Source: Amphiura filiformis (Eukaryota). Taken from it: DNA of 64,000 bases. The stretch lies in the NCBI RefSeq assembly GCF_039555335.1, contig NC_092630.1:31148769-31212768 (forward strand). The letters are read 5' to 3'. Below the pieces are notes generated by a model, which was not told the origin of the DNA, did not search any database, and saw nothing but the letters and a program-made list of their open reading frames with translations. Positions 5,690 to 54,947 of the stretch are shown here, one piece after another (within the stretch, counting starts at the first letter, position 1; each line of letters opens with the position of its first letter). The position numbers and the translations under genes were made by a program.

Positions 5690-8600
5690 CGCGGAATTGT
5701 GCAGTACCGCGTGCGGTACTGCACACTTCCGTTCATGCGGAACTGCACATCCCGACCTGCATTCCCACATGCGGGAATGCATGTCGGGATGTGCAAGTAC
5801 CATATCTTGTACTGCAACATTTTGGTGCATTTCCGCTGGGGATGTGCAATATTTTTGGTGTTTTTCCGCATGGGGATGTGCAATATTTTCGGTGTATTTC
5901 AGCGTGGGGAACTGCAATATTTTGGTGCATTTCCGCTGGGGATGTGCAATATTTTTGGTGTTTTTCCGCATGGGGATGTGCAATATTTTTGGTGTATTTC
6001 CGGGATGTGCAATATTTTTGGTGTTTTTCCGCATGGGGATGTGCAATATTTTTGGTGTATTTCCGCCGGGAGGTGCAATATTTTTGGTGCATTTCCGTTA
6101 GGGGAACTGCAACATTTTTGGTGTTTTTCCGCATGGGGATGTGCAATATTTTTGGTGTATTTCCGCCAGGGATGTGCAATATTTTGGTGTTTTTCCGCCA
6201 GGATGTGCAATATTTTGGTGCATTTCCGTTGGGGATGTGCAATATTTTTGGTGCATTTCCGTTAGGGGATGTGCAATATTTTTGGTGCATTTCCGTTAGG
6301 GGAACTGCAACATTTTTGGTGTTTTTCCCGCATGGGGATGTGCAATTTTTTTGGTGTATTTCCGCCAGGGGATGTGCAATATTTTTGGTGTTTTTCCACG
6401 TGGGGACTGCAATATTTTTGGTGCATTTCCGCCAGGGGATGTGCAATATTTTTGGTGTTTTTTCCGCATGGGGATGTGCAATATTTTTGGTGTATTTCGG
6501 CGTGGGGAACTGCAATATTTTTGGTGCATTTCCGCTAGGGGATTTGCAATATTTAAATTATATTAAATTACTATCCTCCGTAAATTGATTGATAATCGAT
6601 CCACTTGAGAAATTCTCCGTTGGAACTTTAATAGAAAGTGGTCACAATGTCAAGTTGAATATATAATAGTCATCATTAAAGAGGCGTGTGAAATTGATTT
6701 TAATAAAATTAATTTTATACAATAAAGTTTGAGAATATTTGCAGTAAGTTATCAAAAATGTTTTTGAATATTCACCTCGTAAAGTATTAAAGCGCGCCGC
6801 GGCGCCGCCATAGCTTAATTCCATGATCTTGATCCTATTTTTATCGATATACATCGATTACTTATCGGATTAAGTATTGGACACAATAGATGAAGTATTT
6901 GATTGACAAGGTTACCCCTGCGTCCCCTAGCCGCTTGTCTATTAATGTGTGCATATTATAATTGATACCATTAGGCCTATATAATTATGAGAGCTTTAAT
7001 GAGGGGTTATAGTTTTTAGTCTGGTATGTCTGCCTATGCATGTTATGTTTCCATTTGTAAATTCATGTTTAAATGTGCTAGTGTGCGATGCATAATTCTT
7101 CTTTGCCCTGTATATTATATAAAGAATAACGATTAAGCATCATTTAATAATTTGAAATGTTTGTAATGTTTCCATGTTCCGGTGTATGATTTGTTTAATA
7201 TAGCTTTTACTATATCATGATATCGCATGTAAAGCTGCACCAAATATATTGCAGTTCCCCATGCGGACATGCGAACAAAAAACAGCTTTTGCCGTAAGCG
7301 TAGATCCAGGGGGATGAGGGGCTAAGGCTAAACCCCCTAATATTTTGCCAGAGTTCCATACAATCCCCCCCCCAATTTTGACGCCTGTACGACCCCTGTT
7401 AGGTTTATCTTAATTTAGCTATTTTAGATCCGAGACGAAAATACCTATTTCGTCTCAGTTTTAGATAGGTTTAGATGTCCTTTTCATGAATAAAATGCAC
7501 ACAATGTCAAGTTTATTACAATGGTCACTAAATAGATTCATCACAATAGCCACTTATCATTAAGCGACGTGCGATAATATTTTTAATATAATAAAATACT
7601 ATAGACTTTAAAGTTTATAACACTTTCTTTTAATTACAGCAAATGAAGCAAAACTCACAATAGGCTAATAGTCAAAGTAAAACGATAGTAATATTAAAGA
7701 AATTTATATAATTTTATGCATGTGATAATATTTTCTATGCCGCAGGGCCTACAAATAAAAAACAAAACAAATAAAACCAAAAACAAACAACAACAACTAC
7801 AACAACAAAAACCTTTTCGCCGCCGCTTTGACACGCTGAACTGTAGGGCATACAACTGCGTCTTGCATTCTCTCCCGGATTCTCTCATGAGGACATGCGA
7901 AAAAACATGTTCACCCCACATGCAGGGCTGCACGAAATTTCCGCACGCGGACATTCGAACAAAAACCATTCATTATGCAGAACTACACCAAAAATGTTGC
8001 AGTACCCCATGCGGAAATACACCAAAAATATTGCAGTTCCCCATGCGGAAAATACACCAAAAATATTGCACATCCCCTAACGGAAATGCACCAAAAATAT
8101 TGCAGTTCCCCATGCGGAAAAACACCAAAAATATTGCACATCCCCATGCGGATAAACACCAAAAATATTGCACATCCCCTAACGGAAATGCACCAAAAAT
8201 ATTGCAGTTCCCCATGCGGAAAAAACCCAAAATATTGCACATACCCTAACGGAAATGCACCAAAATAATGCACCAAAAATATTGCACATCCCCATGCGGA
8301 TAAACACCAAAAATATTGCACATCCCCTAAAGGAAATGCACCAAAAATATTGCAGTTCCCCATGCGGAAAAAAACCCAAAAATATTGCACATCCCCATGC
8401 GGATAAACAACAAAAATATTGTAGATCCCCTAACGGATAAACACCAAAAATATTGCACATCCCCTAACAGAAATGCACCAAAAATATTGCAGTTCCCCAT
8501 GCGGAAAAAAAACCCAAAAATATTGCACATACCCTAACGGAAATGCACCAAAAAATGCACCAAAAATATTGCACATCCCCATTGCACATCCCCTAACGGA

Positions 8601-9010
8601 AATGCACCAAAAATATTGCAGTTCCCCATGCGGAAAAAAACCAAAAATATTGCACATGCCCTAACGGAAATGCACCAAAAATATTGCACATCCCCATGCG
8701 GATAAACAACAAAAATATTGTAGATCCCCTAACGGAAATGCACCAAAAATATTGCACATCCCCATGCGGATAAACACCAAAAATATTGCACATCCCGCAT
8801 GCGGAAATGCACCAAAAATATTGCAGTTCCCATGCGGGACTGCACATCCCGACCGCCATCACCCCCATGCGGTACTGCACATCCCGACCTGCATCACCGC
8901 ATGCGGGGAATGCACGTCGGGATGTGCAGTCCCGCATGCGGAAGTGCGTGACGGAAGGTGCAGTTCCGCATGCGGGACTGTGAGCGGAAGTGTGCAGTAC
9001 CGCACGCGGT
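5690..9010. mobile_element. Large foldback (TU-like) element. The left arm (about 5790-6560) and right arm (about 7900-8870) are inverted tandem arrays of a ~31-bp unit (ggggatgtgcaatatttttggtgtatttccgc..). The outer inverted flanks are GC-richer (5690-5800 and 8810-9010). The central spacer is about 1.3 kb.
   Basis: About 24 tandem units per arm in opposite orientation. The outer flanks gcagtaccgcgtgcggtactgcaca.. and ..tgtgcagtaccgcacgcggtactac are reverse complements. The long ORFs here are repeat artefacts. Confidence 0.8.
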
Positions 9011-14486: not shown

Positions 14487-14822
14487 TCTTAAAGGAGGAT
14501 TTCGTGATCCTAGCATCCTCTTTTTATGACATTTTTAGTAGATATCCACAAAAAAAGCTTATTCCCAAAATTTCAGTTGATTTCGATTTTGCGTTTACGA
14601 GTTATGCATGATTATGTGTATTGCACTGCTCCATAGGCCACTGTTGTAATTTTGCTCTGGTATACCAGAACGAAATTCAAATTTGACTATATTTTTGCTA
14701 AACGAATTAATCTGCAAGAAATTTTTGGTACATAAACATTATATAGCCAGAGGTTTCCAGTGGTATAAAATTCTCAACTTTTTTTGAAAAAGTGGGGGGA
14801 TGAGGCTGTGGATCACAAAATG
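14487..14822. mobile_element. MITE (~335 bp) with TIR TTAAAGG(A/G)GGATTTCGTGATCC. A second, inverted and slightly longer copy lies at 34636-35040.
   Basis: The two copies share more than 85% identity over about 330 bp. Each begins and ends in TTAA, which fits a piggyBac-like TTAA target duplication. Confidence 0.7.
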
Positions 14823-15883
14823 CCCTTTTAAAAAGCATTTTAACAGATCCTTCTTTCTATCTAACTATGAAAAATTACTCTTTGAAAGTGTGTAACTACA
14901 CTTTTGGACCACCCTATTTTATTCACAATTTGGGTTTTAACCCTAGTAAATGTTTGAATTTAAATTGGCTGGCATTTTTCTACAATAGTTCCATCAGGGT
15001 GCAAGCGTGTTTCTGCAAAGACTTGAAGCAAAGACAATCAATTGAAGTTGACTATACTGTTGTTCACCTTGAGATTTGTATACTAGTGACTGCACATTTT
15101 AGGTTGTATAACTTTCAAACTTGCACACCGTTTTAGGAATCACAGCATAATATGTTGTGTGTAGAGACAGCAAAATCGGAAAGATTTTTTACATATGTGA
15201 CTGAACACTACGAATCAGCCGTAAAGTCGGCCCACGGTCAATTTTGTTTTATTTTGTGTTTAGAAAATATATATCATAAGCTTTAAACTAGTATATCATT
15301 TGACTTCAAACGATATCCAGAAGCAGGGTTATGTTTTGTTGAACTCTGCTCCTTCAATAAAATGCTCTCCTTTCAGTTCTATGTGTGTCTCTTTTTCCAC
15401 CTTGCTGGTAATCAAGTCATAAATGGTGGTCATTTCAAATCATCCCCAAGTCAACGAGGTTCAGGAATGTCCTCTCATTATTATTGTTGGTTATACATAC
15501 CTAGACAAAATACAATACAATTGTAACCCACCACTTGAACAGGATTTAGCCAAAGCAAACACAGACTAGAGCTATTTACTGATTCTATATGTAGAAGATT
15601 TAATATTATCCTCTTCAGCAATAGGATTATTGATTGGTTTAAACGCTATCAAATGAGAAACATGTCGCGCCTAATTGAGACACCTACATTTTGTATGAAT
15701 ACGACCTTCACACATATTTTGCACTGTATCTCAGAATACAATTTGCCGAGTTTACGGCTCATCTTGAGGTGACAAGTAGTATAGTTATATTAGATGACCT
15801 AAGATATTTACGACACATATGATATTACAAGTGATACTGTCATCTATCTGCATGCTTTCATATGTGTACTGACAGAAGCATAC

Positions 15884-26599: not shown

Positions 26600-27830
26600 G
26601 CGGCGCGGTGATCCACCCAAAAAAACAAAATCATCGTATAGATCCCTGGTACTAGGTGCATCTTGACCCCAGCATAAGTTTGTATTGGTTAGTGGGTCAA
26701 GGTCACCTGAGGTCATCCAGGGGTCATCTGAGGTCAAATTTGCAAAAACTGTTGTAGGGGCATGAAACCGTGGGTACAGTCAACATTTGGAGTCAAATTT
26801 CGGGAAGGTCATCCGGGGTCACCCAGGGGTCATCTGAGGTCAAATTACTAAAAACTCGTATGGGCATGAAACTTGGTGGGTACAGTCAACATTTAAAGTC
26901 AAATTTTGGGAAGATACTAAAAATTGTCGTATGGGCATGAAACTAGGTGGGTACAGTCAACATTTGGAGTCAAATTTTGGGAAGGTCATTTTGAGGTCAT
27001 CCGGGGTCACCTGAGGTCAAATTACTAAAACTGTCGTATGGACATGAAACTTGGTGGGTACAGTCAACATTTGGAATCAACATTTTGGGAAGGTCATTTT
27101 GGGGTCACCCAGGGGTCATCTGAGGTCATATTACTAAAAACTGTTGTATGAACATGAAACTGGATACAGTCAACATTTGGAGCCAAATTTTGTGGGGTCG
27201 CATGTTCCTCGAACTTGGTGGGTGCATCTTGACCCCAGGCAGAACAAGTTTGTATTGGTTAGTGGGTCAAGGTCACCTGAGGTCATCCAGGGTCATCTGA
27301 GGTCAAATTAGCAAAAACTGTCATATGGGCATGAAACTTGGTGGGTACAGTCAACATTTGGAGTCAAATTTTTGGAAGGTCATTTCAGGGTCAACCGGTG
27401 TCACCCAGGGGTCATCTGAGGTAAAATTGCTAAAAATGTTGTATGGGCATTGGTGGGCACGGCCAACATTTGGAGCCTAATTTTGTAGGGTCGCACAGAA
27501 CAAGTTTGTATTGGATAGTGGGTCACGGTCAACAGAGGTCATCCAGGGGTCATCTGAAGTCAAATTAGCAAAAACTGTCGTATGGGCATGAAACTTGGTG
27601 GGTACAGTCAACATTTAGAACCAAATTTTTGGAAGCTCATTTCGAGTCAGCCAGGGGTCACCTGAGGTCAAATTACTAAAACTGTCGTATGGGCATGAAA
27701 CTTGGTGGGTACAGTCAACATTTGAAGTCAAATTTTTAGAAGGTCATTTCGGGGTCATCTGAGGTCACCATTTAGAGCAAAATTTTTGGGAGGTCATTTC
27801 GGGTCGACTGAGGTCAATTTAGATGAATTC
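26600..27830. repeat. Satellite-like tandem array of about 9-10 copies of a ~125-bp unit (..ggtcatctgaggtcaaattactaaaaactgtcgtatgggcatgaaacttggtgggtacagtcaacatttggagtcaaattttgggaaggtcatt..).
   Basis: Repeated units with internal ggtca-rich sub-motifs. Flanking gggaagcatgttcctcaaacttggtgggtg segments at 26280 and 27190 suggest a higher-order unit. Confidence 0.8.
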
Positions 27831-32039: not shown

Positions 32040-33200
32040 CAGATCCCCAATCTCTCTTCCAAGTACCTTGTACCTTGTACCTTGTACCTTGTAGATATCA
32101 CTCCCGAAGAGTCCACCAGGGACTATACTGGAAGTTGACGAGAGTGGTCCGGTGGTCTAACGGGGGCTGTGAAGTTGGTGGTCTTGGTCTTGGATGGAAG
32201 TCTTGAAGGTGGCGTGAGGTGGGCATGTCAACTGAAGATTGAGGAAGGCGTTCCAAAGGGAAATGGCTTCGGGGAAAAAAGACTGGATGGAGGGTGTGGA
32301 GGTGTGGTGTTGCACTTGAATTGCTTGTCGTGGCTTCGTCTGGATCTGGAGGCTTTCTTCTTGGTGTATAAGTCGGCGCCGAGGTCGATGTCCTGGTTGA
32401 TGATTTTATGAAGGGTAGTTAGTCGGAGCGTCTGGCGTCTGGTTTCGATGAGGTCCCATTTAAGGTCGGTGAGCATTTTTGTGACACTTGATTTTTCGCC
32501 TAAAGTCGCTGCACACAAAGCGAGCTGCTCTTCGTTGGACTTTCTGAAGAATTTGTTTATTTTCTTCGTACCAGGGTTCCAAGCAGCGGAAGCATACTCC
32601 AAGTGTGGTTGAACAATGGTTTGGTACAGGTTTTCTTTAACAGTTTTGGAACAATGATGAAAGTTTCTCTGAACAAAGTTTTCTTCCAGGGTTTCACCCA
32701 TCATAGAATACTTCGCAGAACCTGGTTGTCTTTTCCTGGACACCCTCATTACTTTGCATTTGGATGCGTTAAATCTCATGCCCCAGTCTTTGGACCAATT
32801 AACAAGACGTGTGAGGTCGGACTGAAGAGAACTTTCGTCTGCTTGCGAATTTATGGCTTTATATATAATGCAGTCGTCTGCAAACAGTCTTGTAGTCGAT
32901 TCAACAGCATCGGCGATGTCATTTATAAACAAAATGAAAAGGTGCGGGCCCAACACTGTGCCTTGGGGCACACCGCTCAGGACTGGTTTCCAGGCTGAAG
33001 TACAACCGTTGACCCTTACCCTCTGGAGACGGTCGGTGAGAAAAGCTTCAATCCACCGGGAAGTTTTATTCCTAATACCATAAAACTTAAGCTTCTGCAG
33101 TAAGCGCTGGTGGGGCACGACATCAAACGCCTTACTGAAGTCTAAGATGGCGATGTCAGTCGTCTGATTATTATTATGGTTTGTAGTCAGGTCATGAAGA
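32040..33200 (-). mobile_element. CR1/L2-like non-LTR retrotransposon fragment (RT plus 3' UTR), ending in a (CCTTGTA)n microsatellite at 32055-32098. It lies in the MVP intron between exons 13 and 14.
   Basis: RT ORF plus a short tandem-repeat 3' tail typical of the CR1 clade. The 5' end is abruptly truncated near 33200. Confidence 0.75.
32228..33118 (-). CDS. Reverse-transcriptase ORF (296 aa) of a 5'-truncated CR1/L2-like non-LTR retrotransposon. RT similarity continues upstream to about 33200 (..LDFSKAFDVVPHQRLL).
   Basis: ORF contains SGVPQGTVLGPHLFILFINDI .. LFADDCIIYK .. (RT domains 4-6, FADD catalytic motif). Upstream out-of-ORF translation reads RKKLIATLHDLTTNHNNNQTTDIAILDFSKAFDVVPH. 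Confidence 0.85.
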   Translation of the reverse strand: MPHQRLLQKLKFYGIRNKTSRWIEAFLTDRLQRVRVNGCTSAWKPVLSGVPQGTVLGPHLFILFINDIADAVESTTRLFADDCIIYKAINSQADESSLQSDLTRLVNWSKDWGMRFNASKCKVMRVSRKRQPGSAKYSMMGETLEENFVQRNFHHCSKTVKENLYQTIVQPHLEYASAAWNPGTKKINKFFRKSNEEQLALCAATLGEKSSVTKMLTDLKWDLIETRRQTLRLTTLHKIINQDIDLGADLYTKKKASRSRRSHDKQFKCNTTPPHPPSSLFSPKPFPFGTPSSIFS

Positions 33201-34279: not shown

Positions 34280-34340
34280 CTCTCCTGATTGCATATCTCT
34301 GACGTATATACCTTCATTGATCCCCAATGCAATGGCTTTC
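34280..34340 (-). CDS. MVP: MVP exon 12. Translates (R)KAIALGINEGIYVRDMQSGE.
   Basis: Aligns to [21 protein letters not shown]; acceptor cccttatag|, donor GAG|gttagt. Confidence 0.85.
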
Positions 34341-34635
34341 CTATAAGGGTCAAAACAATTGGAAATTACACAATAGTATTCATTTTTTGTTAGTATTTCA
34401 AACACAACAAGCAAGTGCAGACAGACATAAATGTTCAATCTTAAACAAAAATGGCTATAAAGAAACAATGAGTGTTAGAATCTGACAATTTCATACACTT
34501 TGGTTAAACGGTTACTTTATAATCACCAGCTTTGGTTCATCTCAAGTTGGGCAGTGACAACAATTTTTTTTGCTGTTGTGCCACAAGTTTGAGGACAAAC
34601 GCCCTTGCAATGCATGCATGTGTGCTCTGCGCTAT

Positions 34636-35040
34636 TAACTTAAAGGGGCATTTCGTGATCCACATCCTCATCCCCCCACTTTTCCCAAAAAAAAGTTGTG
34701 ATTTTTACACCACTGGATACCTCTGGCTAAATAATGTTTATGTACCAAATATTTCTTGCAGATTAATTCGTTTAGCAAAAATATCGCCAAATTTGAATTT
34801 CGTTCTGGTGCACCAGAACGAAATTACAACACATTGTCTATGGAGCAGTGTAATACACATAATCATGCATAACTCGCATAAGCATAAAATCGGAATCAAC
34901 TGAAATTTTGGAAATAAGCTTTTTTCGTGGATATCTACTGAAAATGTCATAAAAAGAGGATGCTAGGATCACGAAATCCTCCTTTAACACTTCCAAACTT
35001 GAGGTGAGATCACGAAATCCTCCTTTAACACTTCCAAACT
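34636..35040. mobile_element. Second copy of the TTAA-flanked MITE. Its 3' terminal repeat is duplicated (34960-35040). It lies in the MVP intron between exons 11 and 12.
   Basis: ttaaaggggcatttcgtgatcc .. ggatcacgaaatcctcctttaa, with cacttccaaacttgaggtg repeated twice. Confidence 0.7.
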
Positions 35041-35384
35041 TGAGGTGAAAAGTCCAGTTTTGGTTGAAAGACAAATGAAATCTTGAACAGCACATCTCAC
35101 ACTGATCAGAGTCAGGCCCACAACACTCCATACCGATTTGGAGTAACCTCAGCCACAGCCACACCCTGTAATGATTGGACACTCTCTTCCAAATGATTTT
35201 GCTGATATCACCATCGCTCGAGCTGGCTTTTTTAGACTTAGCCGAGCCATGCAGCTGTCAATCACCATGCACAACTACAAATCCAGAGTTGGAATTATTG
35301 GTTATAAATATCAGTTATAAAAATATAAAAGCAAATCTAAATCTACCACACATTTTGTTTCTAAAAGGTTATTAACCCTATACG

Positions 35385-35560
35385 CCCCAGTTGGTTTTTG
35401 GCGAGGGGGAAGGAAAGGAGGAAAGAAAGAAAGAACAGGAGAAAACTTTTTTTCTCGGGTGCGGTTTTGAACCCCAGACCCTTCGGGTGCCACGCCCATG
35501 CACTGGCCTCCCTTGCCACGGGGGAGTAGCTTGCCCGGCCAAGCTTTCCATCGCCATATG
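35385..35560 (-). mobile_element. Probable SINE: a tRNA-related head (..gggtctggggttcaaaaccgcacccg..) followed by a CTTT/GAAA-rich tail.
   Basis: Minus strand reads ggccgggcaagctactcccccgtggcaagggaggccagtgcatgggcgtggcacccgaagggtctggggttcaaaaccgcacccgag, then (aaag)n-like low complexity. It has a box-B-like GGTTCAAAACC. Confidence 0.4.
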
Positions 35561-35924
35561 ACTGTGCGCATGATGATGCAATAACATCATGTGGGATACC
35601 TGCTTGTGCTTACGCTTTCTGAATTGAGGTTTTTTGATGTTTGGTACGATTAGGGTTAAACAACCTATGAAAGAGATACATACTTTATAGAGCTTCCAGA
35701 AATTATGGGAAAAGACAGTTTTATTGCATCAGTGTCTACTTAATTCACCTTTTTTCAGCGTATCTGAGCTGTATTTGAGGTCCAGCTTATTACTTATTCA
35801 AGATCACCTGTTGTATATGAAAGACAGGCTGGTAGTCATGTGACACAGTCCACAGTATTGCAGTAGGAGTGTCGCGTGTCGTCTCTCATAATTTAGTACT
35901 ATCAGGTTGAGTCCACATTGACTT

Positions 35925-36100
35925 ACCGGCATAACTACAGAATACCCACCTCACCTCCCAACACAGCATTAGGGTTAGGGTTAGGCTTAGGATTAGGGTT
36001 AGGAGGGTTAGGATTAGGATTAGGGTTAGGGTTAGGGTTAGGGTTAGGGTTAGGGTTAGGGTTAGGCACCCTGAGCGGGGTATTCTGTAGTTACTCCGAC
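35925..36100. repeat. Interstitial telomeric repeat (TTAGGG)n (about 18 units with variants) at 35955-36065, bounded by 22-bp inverted repeats (cggcataactacagaataccc / gggtattctgtagttactccg).
   Basis: The array reads ttagggttagggttaggcttaggattagggttagg..(ttaggg)x8. The flanks are reverse complements of each other. The right flank ends 5 bp from the MVP exon 11 donor (36105). Confidence 0.85.
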
Positions 36101-36104
36101 TTAC

Positions 36105-36213
36105 CTAACAAACACACCATTGCCTTGATCAATAACTTGCACCTGTATAGGAGGAATGTAGCTGACAGGCCCTTGAATCATCCATCTGTCACCTGGCTCC
36201 CGGTCTGGTTTGT
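36105..36213 (-). CDS. MVP: MVP exon 11. Translates (Y)KPDREPGDRWMIQGPVSYIPPIQVQVIDQGNGVFV(R).
   Basis: Aligns to [24 protein letters not shown]; acceptor ttttcattcag|, donor AG|gtaagt. Only this donor gives the phase needed by exon 12. Confidence 0.8.
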
Positions 36214-36415
36214 CTGAATGAAAAATGTCAAACCAAACAAACTTGAACAAACCTTTCTGTAAGACATTACATTGCTCTAAAAATAACACCGAATTGTCAG
36301 GGCCTCGGATTTTAGTTTTTGTTAACAGGATTTTATGTTATTCGGTCTTTATAATGTATATAATAATATGCTTGTGACTTCAAAAACATTTTGTGTTATC
36401 AGGAATTTTGTGTTA

Positions 36416-36795
36416 ACAGATTTCGTGTTAAGGGGGTACTACACCCCTGCCCAATTTTGTCCCTATTTTTGCATTTTTCTCAAAAATTATAGCGCATTGG
36501 TGACAGGTAAGATATGTATATTATAGGGGCAAGGACTACAACTACTGTACTGGAAACTTTATTTCAGCACAGACAACAGTTGTGGAGTTACAGTCAAAAA
36601 TGAGGGAAAACCAATATTTGATCAATAAATCAATAAATACTTGCCTTGAGTTGCTGAATTTTTAGTGCAGTAGTTGTAGTCCTTGCCCCTATAATATACA
36701 TATCTTACTTGTCACCAATGCGCTATAATTTTTAAGAAAAATGCAAAAATAGGCACAAAATTGGTCAGGGGTGTAGTACCCCCTTAAAGAGTGGA
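36416..36795. mobile_element. MITE with long (~145 bp) inverted arms and TIR GGGGGTACTACACCCCTG.
   Basis: gggggtactacacccctgcccaattttgtccctatttttgcattttt..tatagcgcattggtgacaggtaagatatgtatattataggggcaaggactacaactactg is the reverse complement of 36650-36795. Confidence 0.8.
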
Positions 36796-43211: not shown

Positions 43212-44054
43212 TCATTCCAGTCGGTCGTCGTTCTGTGGAAGTAGCTGAATTTGTGCACATCCTTCCTGATCAGCTCCCTTCTTCCTGCTCATTCTTCTGT
43301 GAGTTCTAGTAAACCAAGGAAGATTTCTTCTGTTGGATGACATTTTGGTTGGAACGTTCTCCTCCATCACTTGTTTGATCTTTCTATCAAACATGTCCCA
43401 TTTTTCTTGGACAGTGAGGTTGGCTTCATTTCTGAAGGAGTCACCAAAGATCTTCATGTCTTGCTTTATCTTCTCCACATCAGCCTTGTGCTTCAGGTAG
43501 ATCTTGTGGGGAGGTTTCTTCTTTACTTGAGCAAATCCATTTAGCACCGATAGCACAGCCTCATGATCACTTAAGCCTGGTATGACTTCCACATTCTTGA
43601 TGAAGGAAGAGTTGTTGGTGAGAACCAAATCAAGTATGCTGTTGAGTCTGGTTGGTTTGTCAACCACCTGTTCTAAGCCATGCTCTTGTACAGTCTGAAG
43701 CAGCCTCTCTGCAGTTGTTTTGGATGCCGGATGGTTTACAATCACCGTCTTGTTTACCCAGTCTATGTTTGGTTGATTTAAGTCACCCTGTATGACTACG
43801 TCCTTGAGTTTGGAGTGGTTGTTGATGTTTTCTAACATCACCGCTAGGTCTTCGACCGTTTCTATATCATCATGCTTGGGCTTATACAATGTTCCAAACA
43901 GTATAGGTCTTCTCCCCTGGATATCAAGTTGACACCAAAGCATCTCACTGTTTGTTTCCAGTTCTTGTCTACGGTTGACTGGTAGGTCCTTCCTGTATGC
44001 AAAAAAGACACCACCATGTCTATCCGTCCCACTAGATCTATCTCTCCTGTGCAA
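43212..44054 (-). CDS. APE-type endonuclease domain ORF (280 aa) of a non-LTR retrotransposon.
   Basis: Motifs ..LWCQLDIQGRRPILFGTLYKP .. VIQGDLNQPNIDW .. TRLNSILDLVLTN .. IPGLSDHEAV, the typical EEP/APE layout of ORF2 N-termini. Confidence 0.8.
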   Translation of the reverse strand: MHRRDRSSGTDRHGGVFFAYRKDLPVNRRQELETNSEMLWCQLDIQGRRPILFGTLYKPKHDDIETVEDLAVMLENINNHSKLKDVVIQGDLNQPNIDWVNKTVIVNHPASKTTAERLLQTVQEHGLEQVVDKPTRLNSILDLVLTNNSSFIKNVEVIPGLSDHEAVLSVLNGFAQVKKKPPHKIYLKHKADVEKIKQDMKIFGDSFRNEANLTVQEKWDMFDRKIKQVMEENVPTKMSSNRRNLPWFTRTHRRMSRKKGADQEGCAQIQLLPQNDDRLE

Positions 44055-53085: not shown

Positions 53086-53809
53086 ACAGAGAGATGAGAG
53101 GCCCCACAGCACAGGGGAAATTGCCCAAGTTGTCAACCCGTTGTCAACAATTGTCAAAATAGTCAAAGGGGGCTATCATTTTCTGGAAGAGGGTCCCAAA
53201 TCTTCTAAAAGTCAGCATCAATTGCGACCCCCTATTTCAGCAACAAAAATTTTATGACCCCCCACCAGTGACATGCTCAAAGGGGGCGGGGGTGGGCAGG
53301 GGGCATGTAGTTTTTTCAAAAGTCACGGAAATGCACCGAATCAGGGGAAAATTAAGTGGAATTCCAGCGTACGAAACTAGGGGTCTATCGGTGTAGAAAT
53401 TTTCATCAAAAGGGGGTCATAGGCCTATACGGTGTTGGCAATGTCAAAAATGGGGTGATTTTGCAATATGGGACGCCCAAAATGTCACATCACACACAAT
53501 TAAAAATACCTTTTTACCTAATTTTACAGTACAAAATAGACAAAACTCATTTATTTTGCTCAAAATGCACGCGAAGCAAGCCGAAATTTCAATTTTGAGG
53601 ACCAATTGTTCAAGGAGGTCATTCAGTGTAGGCTATATAGGCCTAGGCCTACTGGAAAAAACCGGGGTCATTGGGTGTAGGATTTGCCAAAAATAAGGGG
53701 TCTTTTCATGGGCACATGACTATGTCAATATATGGGAGTGCCTCCCCTGGGACCCCCTATTTTTCTTTCCAAAATTAATGACCCCCCCCCATATGATCCC
53801 TATGATAGC

Positions 53810-54700
53810 AATGGTAGGGTCAGATGCTATCTACTGATGATAGCAATGGTAGGGTCAGATGCTATCTACTGATGATAGCAATGCTAGGGTCAGATGCTAT
53901 CTACTGATTATATCAATTGTAGAGTCAGATGCTATCTACTGATGATAGCAATGGTAGGGTCAGATGCTATCTACTGATTATATCAATTGTAGAGTCAGAT
54001 GCTATCTACTGATGCTATCTACTGATGATAGCAATGGTAGAGTCCGATGCTATCTACTGATGATAGCAATGGTAGAGTCAGATGCTATCTACTGATGATA
54101 GCAATGTTAGGGTCAGATGCTATCTACTGATGATAGCAATGGTAGGGTCAGATGCTATCTACTGATTATATCAATTGTAGAGTCAGATGCTATCTACTGA
54201 TGATAGCAATGGTAGGGTCAGATGCTATCTACTGATTATATCAATTGTAGAGTCAGATGCTATCTACTGATGCTATCTACTGATGATAGCAATGGTAGGC
54301 AGATGCTATCTACTGATGATAGCAATGGTAGGGTCAGATGCTATCTACTGATTATATCAATTGTAGAGTCAGATGCTATCTACTGATTATATCAATTGTA
54401 GAGTCAGATGCTATCTACTGATGCTATCTACTGATGATAGCAATGGTAGGCAGATGCTATCTACTGATGATAGCAATGGTAGGGTCAGATGCTATCTACT
54501 GATTATATCAATTGTAGAGTCAGATGCTATCTACTGATGATAGCAATGGTAGGGTCAGATGCTATCTACTGATTATATCATTTGTAGAGTCAGATGCTAT
54601 CTACTGATGATAGCAATGGTAGGGTCAGATGCTATCTACTGATGATAGCAATGGTAGGGTCAGATGCTATCTACTGATGATAGCAATGCTAGGGTTAGAT
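53810..54700. repeat. Minisatellite of about 24 copies of a ~35-bp unit (gatgctatctactgatgatagcaatggtagggtca, alternating with the variant gattatatcaattgtagagtca). A short 4-copy array of the same unit lies at 57520-57670.
   Basis: The tandem periodicity is directly visible. Both arrays are followed by the same ~270-bp block (54690-54960 matches 57665-57915). Confidence 0.9.
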
Positions 54701-54947
54701 ATTATATCACTCATACATAAATTCTAGACAGTTCATTGGTTGATTACCATTTATCATTTTTACCATCACCCACTCCGTGTGATAGTCTTTACCATCATAG
54801 TGCTCTGTCAGAGTGCGCCTGCGCCTAAGTCATGCGCTGACTCTTGGACTCGCCGATTTAGTTATGGGGTGGACCCCAAAATGTGAAGTATATCACGGCA
54901 AAACATGGTGTTATGTTAATGAAAAAATGTATTTCTTACCTTAAATA

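What the first reader, a model, noticed from the sequence alone, without database searches (positions are those of the whole stretch)
35925..36110. Telomeric (TTAGGG)n array bounded by 22-bp inverted repeats, 5 bp from an exon donor
The interstitial telomeric array of about 110 bp is bracketed by cggcataactacagaataccc and its reverse complement. That looks like TIRs of a small element or a hairpin-mediated insertion rather than a simple end-fusion relic. The right arm ends 5 bp before the GTAAGT donor of MVP exon 11, so the structure sits within the splice-regulatory window.
Basis: seen in the sequence. Interest (0 to 1): 0.55.

Follow-up and report, generated by a model that had tools for sequence, protein, structure and literature searches.

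The report
Telomere-repeat-carrying mini-transposon in a splice donor
The telomere-like repeat block is the cargo of a 170-bp non-coding DNA transposon that landed exactly on the 5' splice site of a major-vault-protein intron, and its 8-bp target duplication rebuilt that splice site; this is a tidy but fairly ordinary transposon insertion with unusual cargo.

Summary
A (TTAGGG)~16 array (35969-36066) lies between imperfect inverted repeats (35928-35953 / 36072-36097; 16-nt perfect core). On the gene strand this reads GGTAAGTC, which is the last exon base plus intron +1 to +7 of an MVP exon. The arms are not chance palindromy. The same terminus (GGNNTAACTACAGAATACCC) occurs in 98 metagenome contigs (92 distinct). 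Most of these are a ~121-bp MITE, and 20 of 46 complete copies have 8-bp target-site duplications. The window's right end matches that family over 23-24 nt. Longer members carry internal 63-67-bp tandem repeats. The structure is therefore a non-autonomous TIR transposon with GG termini and an 8-bp TSD. That fits Merlin, but no transposase was found. Its interior is almost entirely telomeric repeat. How the array got in is inferred only: most likely telomerase-type filling of a break inside an element, later reshaped by slippage. No second telomere-bearing copy, empty site or host genome could be examined. Interest is modest: a new variant of tandem-repeat-hitchhiking MITEs.

The parts
35920..35927 (.). 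Left copy of the 8-bp target-site duplication GACTTACC. On the minus strand it reads GGTAAGTC, a duplicated donor-like site 178 nt inside the intron.
   Evidence: Direct repeat D4, 100% identical, 178 nt spacing, abutting both arms. The family TSD length is 8 bp.
35928..35953 (+). Left terminal inverted repeat, GGCATAACTACAGAATACCCACCTCA ('GGCA/GGCT-type' end).
   Evidence: Inverted repeat I1. The first 20 nt are identical to the end of L019, and nt 5-20 match all 98 loci.
35954..35968 (+). 15-nt non-repeat spacer CCTCCCAACACAGCA between the left TIR and the array.
   Evidence: Read from the sequence. No match in the window or in the loci.
35969..36066 (+). (TTAGGG)n array of about 16 units with the G-strand on the + strand. 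It reads (CCCUAA)n in the MVP pre-mRNA. Variant units lie at the left and 7 perfect units at the right.
   Evidence: TRF, pattern search, sequence.
36067..36071 (+). 5-nt spacer CACCC between the array and the right TIR.
   Evidence: Sequence.
36072..36097 (-). Right terminal inverted repeat. Its reverse complement is GGAGTAACTACAGAATACCCCGCTCA ('GGAG-type' end).
   Evidence: Inverted repeat I1. It is 23-24 nt identical to the 5' end of the metagenome MITE consensus.
36098..36105 (.). Right copy of the TSD, GACTTACC. On the minus strand this is the last exon base G (36105) plus intron +1 to +7, GTAAGTC (36104-36098): the working 5' splice site.
   Evidence: The reading frame joins to the next exon only through this donor.
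36105..36213 (-). Predicted MVP exon (109 nt, ...PGDRWMIQGPVSYIPPIQVQVIDQGNGVFV-R) whose donor was the insertion target.
   Evidence: Translation, tblastn with a recalled human MVP sequence, database hits carrying Vault/MVP Pfam domains, alignment.
34280..34340 (-). Next MVP exon (KAIALGINEGIYVRDMQSGE). The intron between the two exons is 34341-36104 (1764 nt).
   Evidence: Acceptor ...cccttatag|G and frame continuity.

Best explanation
Window 35928-36097 is a 170-bp non-autonomous (MITE-like) cut-and-paste DNA transposon. It integrated into the 8-bp target GGTAAGTC at the exon/intron boundary of an MVP exon on the minus strand. Staggered cleavage and fill-in duplicated those 8 bp. The exon-proximal copy keeps positions -1 to +7 of the 5' splice site unchanged. 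The element and the second copy lie inside the intron, so the insertion could be tolerated. The element belongs to a TIR family (GG[AG/CT]TAACTACAGAATACCCCGC...) that is multi-copy in animal-derived metagenome contigs. Its GG termini, roughly 26-nt TIRs and 8-bp TSDs fit the Merlin superfamily definition. Apart from the TIRs, only 20 nt of non-repeat sequence remain, and the interior is a telomeric (TTAGGG)~16 tract. The most likely origin of that cargo is inferred: a break inside a family member (for example interrupted gap repair after excision, the classic route to internally deleted elements) was extended by telomerase on the 3' end that carries the left TIR. This is how short interstitial telomeric sequences arise at double-strand breaks. 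The extended end was then joined to the right TIR, and replication slippage later spread the TTAGGA variant and homogenised the right half. Shown: the array, TIRs, TSD, family membership and the exon/donor relationship. Inferred: the superfamily, the telomerase origin, whether the array was acquired before or after arrival at MVP, and any effect on splicing. I put about 0.85 on the transposon identity and about 0.45 on the telomerase-filler origin.
For: The 8-bp perfect direct repeat directly abuts the 27-nt, 85% inverted arms. The terminus pattern GGNNTAACTACAGAATACCC was found in 98 metagenome contigs, 92 of them non-duplicate. Of these, 46 have a second inverted terminus, the modal length is 121 bp, and 20 have a >=7/8 match in the flanking 8 bp, against a chance probability of about 4e-4 each. 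The window's right end is identical to the family consensus over 23-24 nt, and the GGAG versus GGCT/GGCA asymmetry of the two ends is the same as in L027 and L038. Negative controls: the same pattern hits only one place in 596 Gb of bacterial genomes, and the 16-mer hits in viral contigs share no flanks. Family members L027, L031, L038 and L050 carry internal tandem repeats between the same TIRs with intact 8-bp TSDs, so repeat cargo is usual for this family. The Merlin definition (TIR 24-462 bp, terminal 5'-GG, 8-9-bp TSD) comes from PMC8101967. The reading frame exon(…GTT AG)|G AAA GCC works only with the exon-proximal GTAAGT. Telomerase insertion of short TTAGGG tracts at breaks is documented in PMC7215372 and PMC2246262. 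The G-strand orientation fits extension of the top-strand 3' end that carries the left TIR.
Against: There is no other copy of the element or its TIR in the 64-kb window, and the host genome could not be searched. Multi-copy status therefore rests on other organisms' DNA. No transposase with these TIRs was found, so the superfamily is unproven. In the abundant 121-bp MITE one end starts AG rather than GG. No empty orthologous or allelic site could be obtained. None of the other 92 family loci carries a clean (TTAGGG)n tract. The bases left of the array (…GCA) are not in register with the repeat, so there is no microhomology signature of telomerase priming. The degenerate-left / perfect-right pattern is not what a single one-step addition predicts without later slippage.
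Confidence: 0.8

Rival explanations
1. There is no transposon. A double-strand break next to the donor was healed by telomerase, and the repair itself produced a short direct duplication and an inverted duplication of local sequence. This is the 'hairpin/complex rearrangement' type of ITS insertion.
For: In the horse, some telomerase-mediated ITS insertions are accompanied by direct duplications of the target (4.5%) or by inverted duplications of 38-53 bp (PMC7215372).
Against: The arms are not copies of local sequence. They are the termini of an independent multi-copy element family with the same 8-bp TSD length, with 23-24 nt of exact identity.
Confidence: 0.03
2. The element is a MITE, but the array is an ordinary hexanucleotide microsatellite that grew by replication slippage from a chance TTAGGG-like seed in the interior. 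Telomerase was never involved.
For: Microsatellites hitchhiking in MITEs are known, for example (GTCY)n MITEs and Xenopus Xstir, as listed in PMC6947457. The four TTAGGA variants and the homogeneous right half show that slippage has acted on this array.
Against: The unit is exactly the metazoan telomere hexamer. A 16-unit hexamer array is long for seed-and-slip. The canonical family interior contains no TTAGGG seed. The element has lost virtually all normal interior sequence, which slippage does not explain.
Confidence: 0.15
3. The telomeric tract is native cargo of a sub-family of this transposon. It may have been captured once from a (sub)telomere between two termini. That sub-family spreads interstitial telomeric sequences by transposition, and the MVP copy is one of many.
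For: L019, from a different assembly, has the same GGCATAAC... 20-mer end as the window. Its interior matches (CCCTAA)5 at 24/30. Only 3 such telomere-like spots exist in 369 kb of loci. [quoted passage not shown]
Against: In L019 the repeat orientation relative to the GGCA end is opposite to the window's. The chance of one of 3 spots falling inside an element is about 0.09, so the support is weak. No clean telomere-bearing copy was found among 92 loci or in viral contigs. The host genome is unavailable.
Confidence: 0.15
4. The array is a relic of a chromosome end-fusion or of subtelomeric sequence.
For: Only the presence of telomeric repeats with degenerate units on one side.
Against: A 98-bp single-orientation tract lies inside an intron of an intact, collinear 37-kb MVP gene and is bounded by TIRs and a TSD. 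There is no head-to-head arrangement and there are no subtelomeric repeats.
Confidence: 0.01

Closest known systems
MITEs with hitchhiking microsatellites or tandem repeats, for example the (GTCY)n MITEs of insects, Xstir in Xenopus and BIV160/HindIII-satellite MITE-like elements of bivalves (listed in PMC6947457)
   Same: A short non-coding element with TIRs and a TSD whose interior is a tandem repeat. In this same TIR family, L027, L031, L038 and L050 carry 63-67-bp internal repeats.
   Different: The cargo is the telomere hexamer itself, and it fills almost the whole interior. Only one such copy is known, so a 'family with this cargo' is not established.
Merlin superfamily DNA transposons and their MITEs (Feschotte 2004, as summarised in PMC8101967)
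   Same: Terminal 5'-GG, TIRs of about 26 nt, 8-bp (occasionally 9-bp) TSDs with an AT-rich centre.
   Different: No DDE_Tnp_IS1595 transposase has been linked to these termini. One end of the commonest metagenome MITE begins AG.
Short interstitial telomeric sequences inserted by telomerase at double-strand breaks (PMC2246262, PMC7215372, PMC8537989)
   Same: A short (about 16-unit), single-orientation TTAGGG tract in an intron, and the likely biochemical source of the repeats.
   Different: Those ITSs sit in ordinary DNA without TIRs. Here the tract is enclosed in a transposon with its own TSD. There is no in-register microhomology at the 5' junction, and a TERC-derived flank could not be tested.
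Telomere-bearing transposons of ciliates (Oxytricha TBE1, Tetrahymena Tel-1); recalled from memory, not checked here
   Same: DNA transposons physically associated with telomeric repeats.
   Different: In ciliates the repeats are at the outer ends of the element and relate to macronuclear processing. Here they are internal cargo between the TIRs.
Introner elements (MITE-like transposons that create introns using TSD-derived splice sites; Huff et al. 2016, Gozashti et al. 2022); recalled from memory
   Same: A target-site duplication supplies or duplicates a splice-site sequence, so that a DNA-transposon insertion is compatible with splicing.
   Different: No new intron was created. The element landed in the donor of an existing 1.76-kb intron and merely lengthened it by 178 nt.

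Membership tests
Non-autonomous TIR (class II) transposon / MITE | Terminal inverted repeats at both ends | tested here: met
   27-nt arms, 85% complementary, with a 16-nt perfect core.
Non-autonomous TIR (class II) transposon / MITE | Target-site duplication of the family's fixed length directly outside the TIRs | tested here: met
   GACTTACC, 8/8, abutting both arms. 20 of 46 complete family copies have a >=7/8 match at 8 bp.
Non-autonomous TIR (class II) transposon / MITE | The termini are shared by many dispersed copies | tested here: met
   98 metagenome contigs (92 distinct) share the terminus and mostly a 121-bp body. These are from other organisms. There is no second copy in the 64-kb window, and the host genome is not available.
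Non-autonomous TIR (class II) transposon / MITE | Small size and no coding capacity | tested here: met
   170 bp. The only ORFs across it are repeat-derived artefacts.
Non-autonomous TIR (class II) transposon / MITE | Demonstrated mobility (empty site in an allele or orthologue) | not testable with these tools
   Exact-ORF look-ups for neighbouring ORFs found no other contig of this locus.
Merlin superfamily | 8- or 9-bp TSD | tested here: met
   The definition is from PMC8101967.
Merlin superfamily | Conserved terminal 5'-GG and TIR >= 24 bp | tested here: met
   The window ends are GGCA... and GGAG..., with arms of 26-27 nt. In the 121-bp metagenome MITE one end is AGCT.
Merlin superfamily | An autonomous partner encoding a DDE_Tnp_IS1595 transposase bounded by the same TIRs | tested here: inconclusive
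   No transposase-like ORF lies inside or next to any of the 98 loci. These ORFs were inspected by eye only, not scanned against Pfam. The contigs are short, so absence is not informative.
hAT superfamily | 8-bp TSD with nTnnnnAn target preference and YARNG termini (definition recalled from memory) | tested here: not met
   The TSD length fits. The termini are GG..., and the 20 intact TSDs give nAnWWWTn: A at position 2 in 13/20 and T at position 7 in 13/20.
Short ITS inserted by telomerase at a break | Short single-orientation (TTAGGG)n tract | tested here: met
   16.8 units, one orientation.
Short ITS inserted by telomerase at a break | Nucleotides in register with the repeat at the 5' junction, or a TERC-derived flank | tested here: not met
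   The junction is ...CACAGCA|TTAGGG, with 0 nt in register. The host TERC is unknown, so the TERC flank is not testable.
Short ITS inserted by telomerase at a break | An ITS-less orthologous locus differing only by the tract | not testable with these tools
   No orthologous sequence is available.
Introner elements | The insertion creates a new spliceosomal intron whose ends come from the element and its TSD | tested here: not met
   The element occupies the first 178 nt of a 1764-nt intron that also contains unrelated sequence. The acceptor is 1.76 kb away at 34341/34340.

The most novel reading that the evidence does not exclude
The MVP copy is one member of a telomere-repeat-bearing MITE lineage: a cut-and-paste transposon that carries a binding-competent-length (TTAGGG)n tract and seeds interstitial telomeric sequences around the genome. 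This route to ITSs has been proposed in reviews, but I found no sequence-level example with TIRs and a TSD. L019 would be a decayed second example in another species.
Probability: 0.15. Interest if true: 0.6.

Novelty: new variant of a known kind. Interest (0 to 1): 0.4.

Why it matters
Interstitial telomeric sequences are usually explained by chromosome fusions or by telomerase healing of breaks. Movement by transposons is mentioned as a possibility but is rarely shown base by base. This locus is a clean example: a telomeric tract enclosed by intact transposon ends and a target-site duplication. If more copies exist in the host genome, transposition would be a demonstrated route for spreading telomere-protein binding sites and fragile G-rich tracts into genes. 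The locus also illustrates how a target-site duplication can make an insertion into a 5' splice site harmless. It leaves two identical GGTAAGTC donors 178 nt apart, and that arrangement is directly testable with RNA-seq.

Tried and rejected
1. I looked for further copies in the window using a 15-mer with up to 2 mismatches, blastn-short of both flanks, and blastn of the 121-bp MITE consensus. None was found.
2. I tried to obtain allelic or orthologous loci through exact-ORF look-ups: the exon ORF 36101-36289(-), the element-spanning ORF 35918-36217(+) and the RT ORF 32228-33118(-). None is on record.
3. I scanned viral contigs for TIR plus telomere repeat and got 0 hits. Scans for the 16-mer in viral contigs and the 20-mer pattern in bacterial genomes gave only chance hits with no shared flanks. 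These serve as negative controls.
4. I searched the 98 loci for a transposase. The long ORFs are host genes or unrelated, and none lies inside an element. These ORFs were judged by eye, not by a Pfam scan.
5. I tested whether the window and the metagenome hosts are the same species. There is no similarity beyond the TIR at E<=1e-5, and the SINE-like insert of L074 is absent from the window. P0046 and P0047, the closest MVP fragments, come from other assemblies (PRJEB16362).
6. An alternative GC donor 18 nt upstream, which would remove the 6-residue extension, was rejected because the frame does not join the acceptor.
7. Literature searches for a described telomere-bearing MITE or for the TIR sequence found nothing specific.
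8. The end-fusion relic and the transposon-free hairpin-repair readings were rejected (see the rival explanations).

Full report
WHAT IS IN THE SEQUENCE

Tandem Repeats Finder reports a period-6 array at 35969-36066: 16.8 copies, 88% matches, consensus TTAGGG. It is the only telomere-like tract in the window.

The units, read, are 2x TTAGGG, TTAGGC, TTAGGA, TTAGGG, TTAGGA, a 3-nt GGG insertion, 2x TTAGGA, then 7 perfect TTAGGG and a final TTAGG.

The repeat finder gives inverted arms at 35927-35953 and 36072-36098 (27 nt, 85% complementary). The perfect core of the arms is the 16-mer TAACTACAGAATACCC.

The layout is TSD - TIR (26 nt) - 15-nt spacer - array (98 nt) - 5-nt spacer - TIR (26 nt) - TSD. 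The element proper is 35928-36097 (170 bp).

GENE CONTEXT

tblastn with a human MVP sequence recalled from memory maps about 25 collinear exon matches on the minus strand, from about 50.3 kb to about 13.0 kb. A database search with the concatenated local exons returns proteins carrying the Vault/MVP Pfam domains, some named 'major vault protein'.

The only database hit that carries a species name is a Crassostrea gigas MVP fragment. Two near-oyster fragments are about 83% identical in one exon. The host is therefore probably a mollusc or other lophotrochozoan, but this is an inference.

The exon next to the array is 36213-36105 on the minus strand (...PGDRWMIQGPVSYIPPIQVQVIDQGNGVFV). It ends ...GTT AG|GTAAGTC. 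The next exon starts at 34340 after ...cccttatag, and AG+G AAA GCC gives R-K-A in frame.

On the gene strand the TSD reads GGTAAGTC. The right copy (36105-36098) is the last exon base plus intron positions +1 to +7. The element begins at intron position +8. The second GGTAAGTC lies 178 nt further into the 1764-nt intron. Reading through the first donor gives AGG TAA, an in-frame stop.

ARE THE ARMS CHANCE PALINDROMY?

They are not. A scan of metagenome contigs for GGNNTAACTACAGAATACCC returned 98 loci. After removing duplicate assemblies there are 92 distinct loci.

- Most are a ~121-bp element: GGAGTAACTACAGAATACCCCGCAACT...AGTTGCGGGGTATTCTGTAGTTAAGCT.
- 46 have a recognisable second inverted terminus.
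- 20 of those have >=7/8 identity between the 8 bp on either side (for example GACACATG, AATATTTC, AAATAATT, CACTTGCG), against a chance probability of about 4e-4 per element.
- A few are off by one, compatible with 9-bp TSDs.

The window's right end is identical to the family's 5' consensus for 23-24 nt. The pairing of a GGAG-type end with a GGCT/GGCA-type end recurs in L027 and L038.

As negative controls, the same pattern hits one place in 596 Gb of bacterial and archaeal genomes, and 16-mer hits in viral contigs share nothing beyond the 16-mer.

WHAT KIND OF ELEMENT

No transposase was found in or beside any locus, so the family is known only as non-autonomous elements. These ORFs were judged by eye, not scanned against Pfam.

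Its properties are GG termini, roughly 26-nt TIRs, 8-bp (sometimes 9-bp) TSDs and a target with an AT-rich centre (nAnWWWTn). They match the published definition of Merlin: TIRs of 24-462 bp, conserved terminal 5'-GG, 8- or 9-bp TSDs (PMC8101967). They do not match the usual hAT termini and target, which I recalled from memory. I therefore call it Merlin-like, but unproven.

Four longer members (L027 835 bp, L031 464 bp, L038 428 bp, L050 535 bp) carry 2-7 copies of 63-67-bp internal tandem repeats between the same TIRs, with intact 8-bp TSDs in L027 and L038. Tandem-repeat cargo is thus normal for this family. This is the known class of repeat-hitchhiking MITEs (examples listed in PMC6947457).

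WHAT IS UNUSUAL

In the window copy nothing of a normal interior remains. Outside the TIRs there are only 15 + 5 nt, and the cargo is the telomere hexamer. None of the other loci has a clean (TTAGGG)n.

One locus, L019, comes from a different assembly and has exactly the window's GGCATAACTACAGAATACCC end. Its interior matches (CCCTAA)5 at 24/30. However, the orientation relative to that end is opposite to the window's. With only three telomere-like spots in 369 kb of loci, the chance of one falling inside an element is roughly 0.09. This is a hint, not evidence.

MECHANISM

Shown:
- A TIR element integrated at GGTAAGTC.
- The TSD regenerated the donor, so positions -1 to +7 of the 5' splice site are unchanged.

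Inferred:
- The telomeric tract most likely arose when a break inside a family member was extended by telomerase and rejoined. Interrupted gap repair after excision is the standard source of internally deleted elements with filler DNA. Short ITSs arise in this way at breaks in mammals (PMC2246262, PMC7215372).
- The G-strand lies on the strand whose 3' end carries the left TIR, which is the polarity this model needs.
- The four TTAGGA units and the homogeneous right half indicate later slippage.

Against this model, there are no in-register bases at the left junction. I also cannot tell whether the tract was acquired before or after the element reached MVP.

The pre-mRNA would carry (CCCUAA)n, and the arms can pair. 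The minimum free energy is -63.9 kcal/mol and the z-score is -2.2, with the long stem in both the MFE and centroid structures. That stem would bring the two GGUAAGUC sites together. Whether this affects splicing is untested.

RIVALS

- Transposon-free repair with direct and inverted duplications, as at some horse ITSs, is excluded because the arms are transposon termini.
- An end-fusion relic is excluded by the intact collinear gene.
- A slippage-born microsatellite (about 0.15) remains open.
- A genuinely telomere-bearing sub-family that spreads ITSs (about 0.15) also remains open. The second is the most novel reading; reviews list transposon-mediated spread of telomeric repeats only as a possibility (PMC6410037).

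VERDICT

The feature is a new variant of a known kind: a MITE with hitchhiking tandem repeat, here the telomere repeat, sitting in a splice donor that its own TSD repaired.

Interest is moderate (0.4). It would rise if the host genome shows more TIR-bounded telomeric tracts.

Noticed in passing
window 36105-36125 (minus strand, end of the MVP exon): The exon ends with six residues (GNGVFV, 18 nt) that are absent from all aligned MVP homologues, which read ...VEVVTK|RKAIPLDENEG.... The extra peptide resembles the NEGIYV motif that starts the next exon. It may be a lineage-specific donor shift or a micro-duplication.
   Followed up: partly
window 36428-36787: A ~360-bp region aligns to its own reverse complement at 82% identity. 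This is a foldback or long-inverted-repeat element in the intron just upstream (in the gene's sense) of the same exon.
   Followed up: no
window 32228-33118 (-) and 43212-44054 (-): Long ORFs inside MVP introns hit reverse transcriptase (RVT_1, E=1.5e-19) and the endonuclease-reverse transcriptase domain (Exo_endo_phos_2, E=3e-12). They are LINE fragments in the same orientation as the gene.
   Followed up: partly
window 5700-8900, 26650-27770, 53800-54730: Three blocks of internally repetitive (satellite-like) sequence were seen in the window self-comparison. The 5.7-6.6 kb and 8.0-8.9 kb blocks are inverted relative to each other at about 80% identity.
   Followed up: no
window 14489-14831 and 34640-34987; 34967-35048: A ~345-bp dispersed repeat is present in inverted orientation (91% identity) in two different MVP introns. 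A perfect 41-bp tandem duplication sits at the edge of the second copy.
   Followed up: no
L019 1816-1939 (ERZ1738537 contig): A family member with the same GGCATAAC... end as the window element. Its interior is a decayed telomere-like hexamer run (24/30 to (CCCTAA)5) plus a partial duplication of the TIR core (CAGAATACC twice).
   Followed up: partly
L074 (Ga0126337_10030598), element of 486 bp: A family member contains a nested ~300-bp insertion that I judged to be tRNA-derived/SINE-like from its sequence alone; no tRNA or repeat tool was run on it. It shows the family is old enough to be a target of other repeats. This insert is absent from the window.
   Followed up: partly
L027 52-572 and L038 236-377 (element coordinates): The internal 63-bp tandem repeats of these two elements are reverse complements of one another (GGCTACGCGGTACGCGG motif), and the GGAG and GGCT ends are swapped accordingly. 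They are the same sub-family seen in two coral-type JGI metagenomes; the coral origin is recalled from memory and not verified.
   Followed up: no
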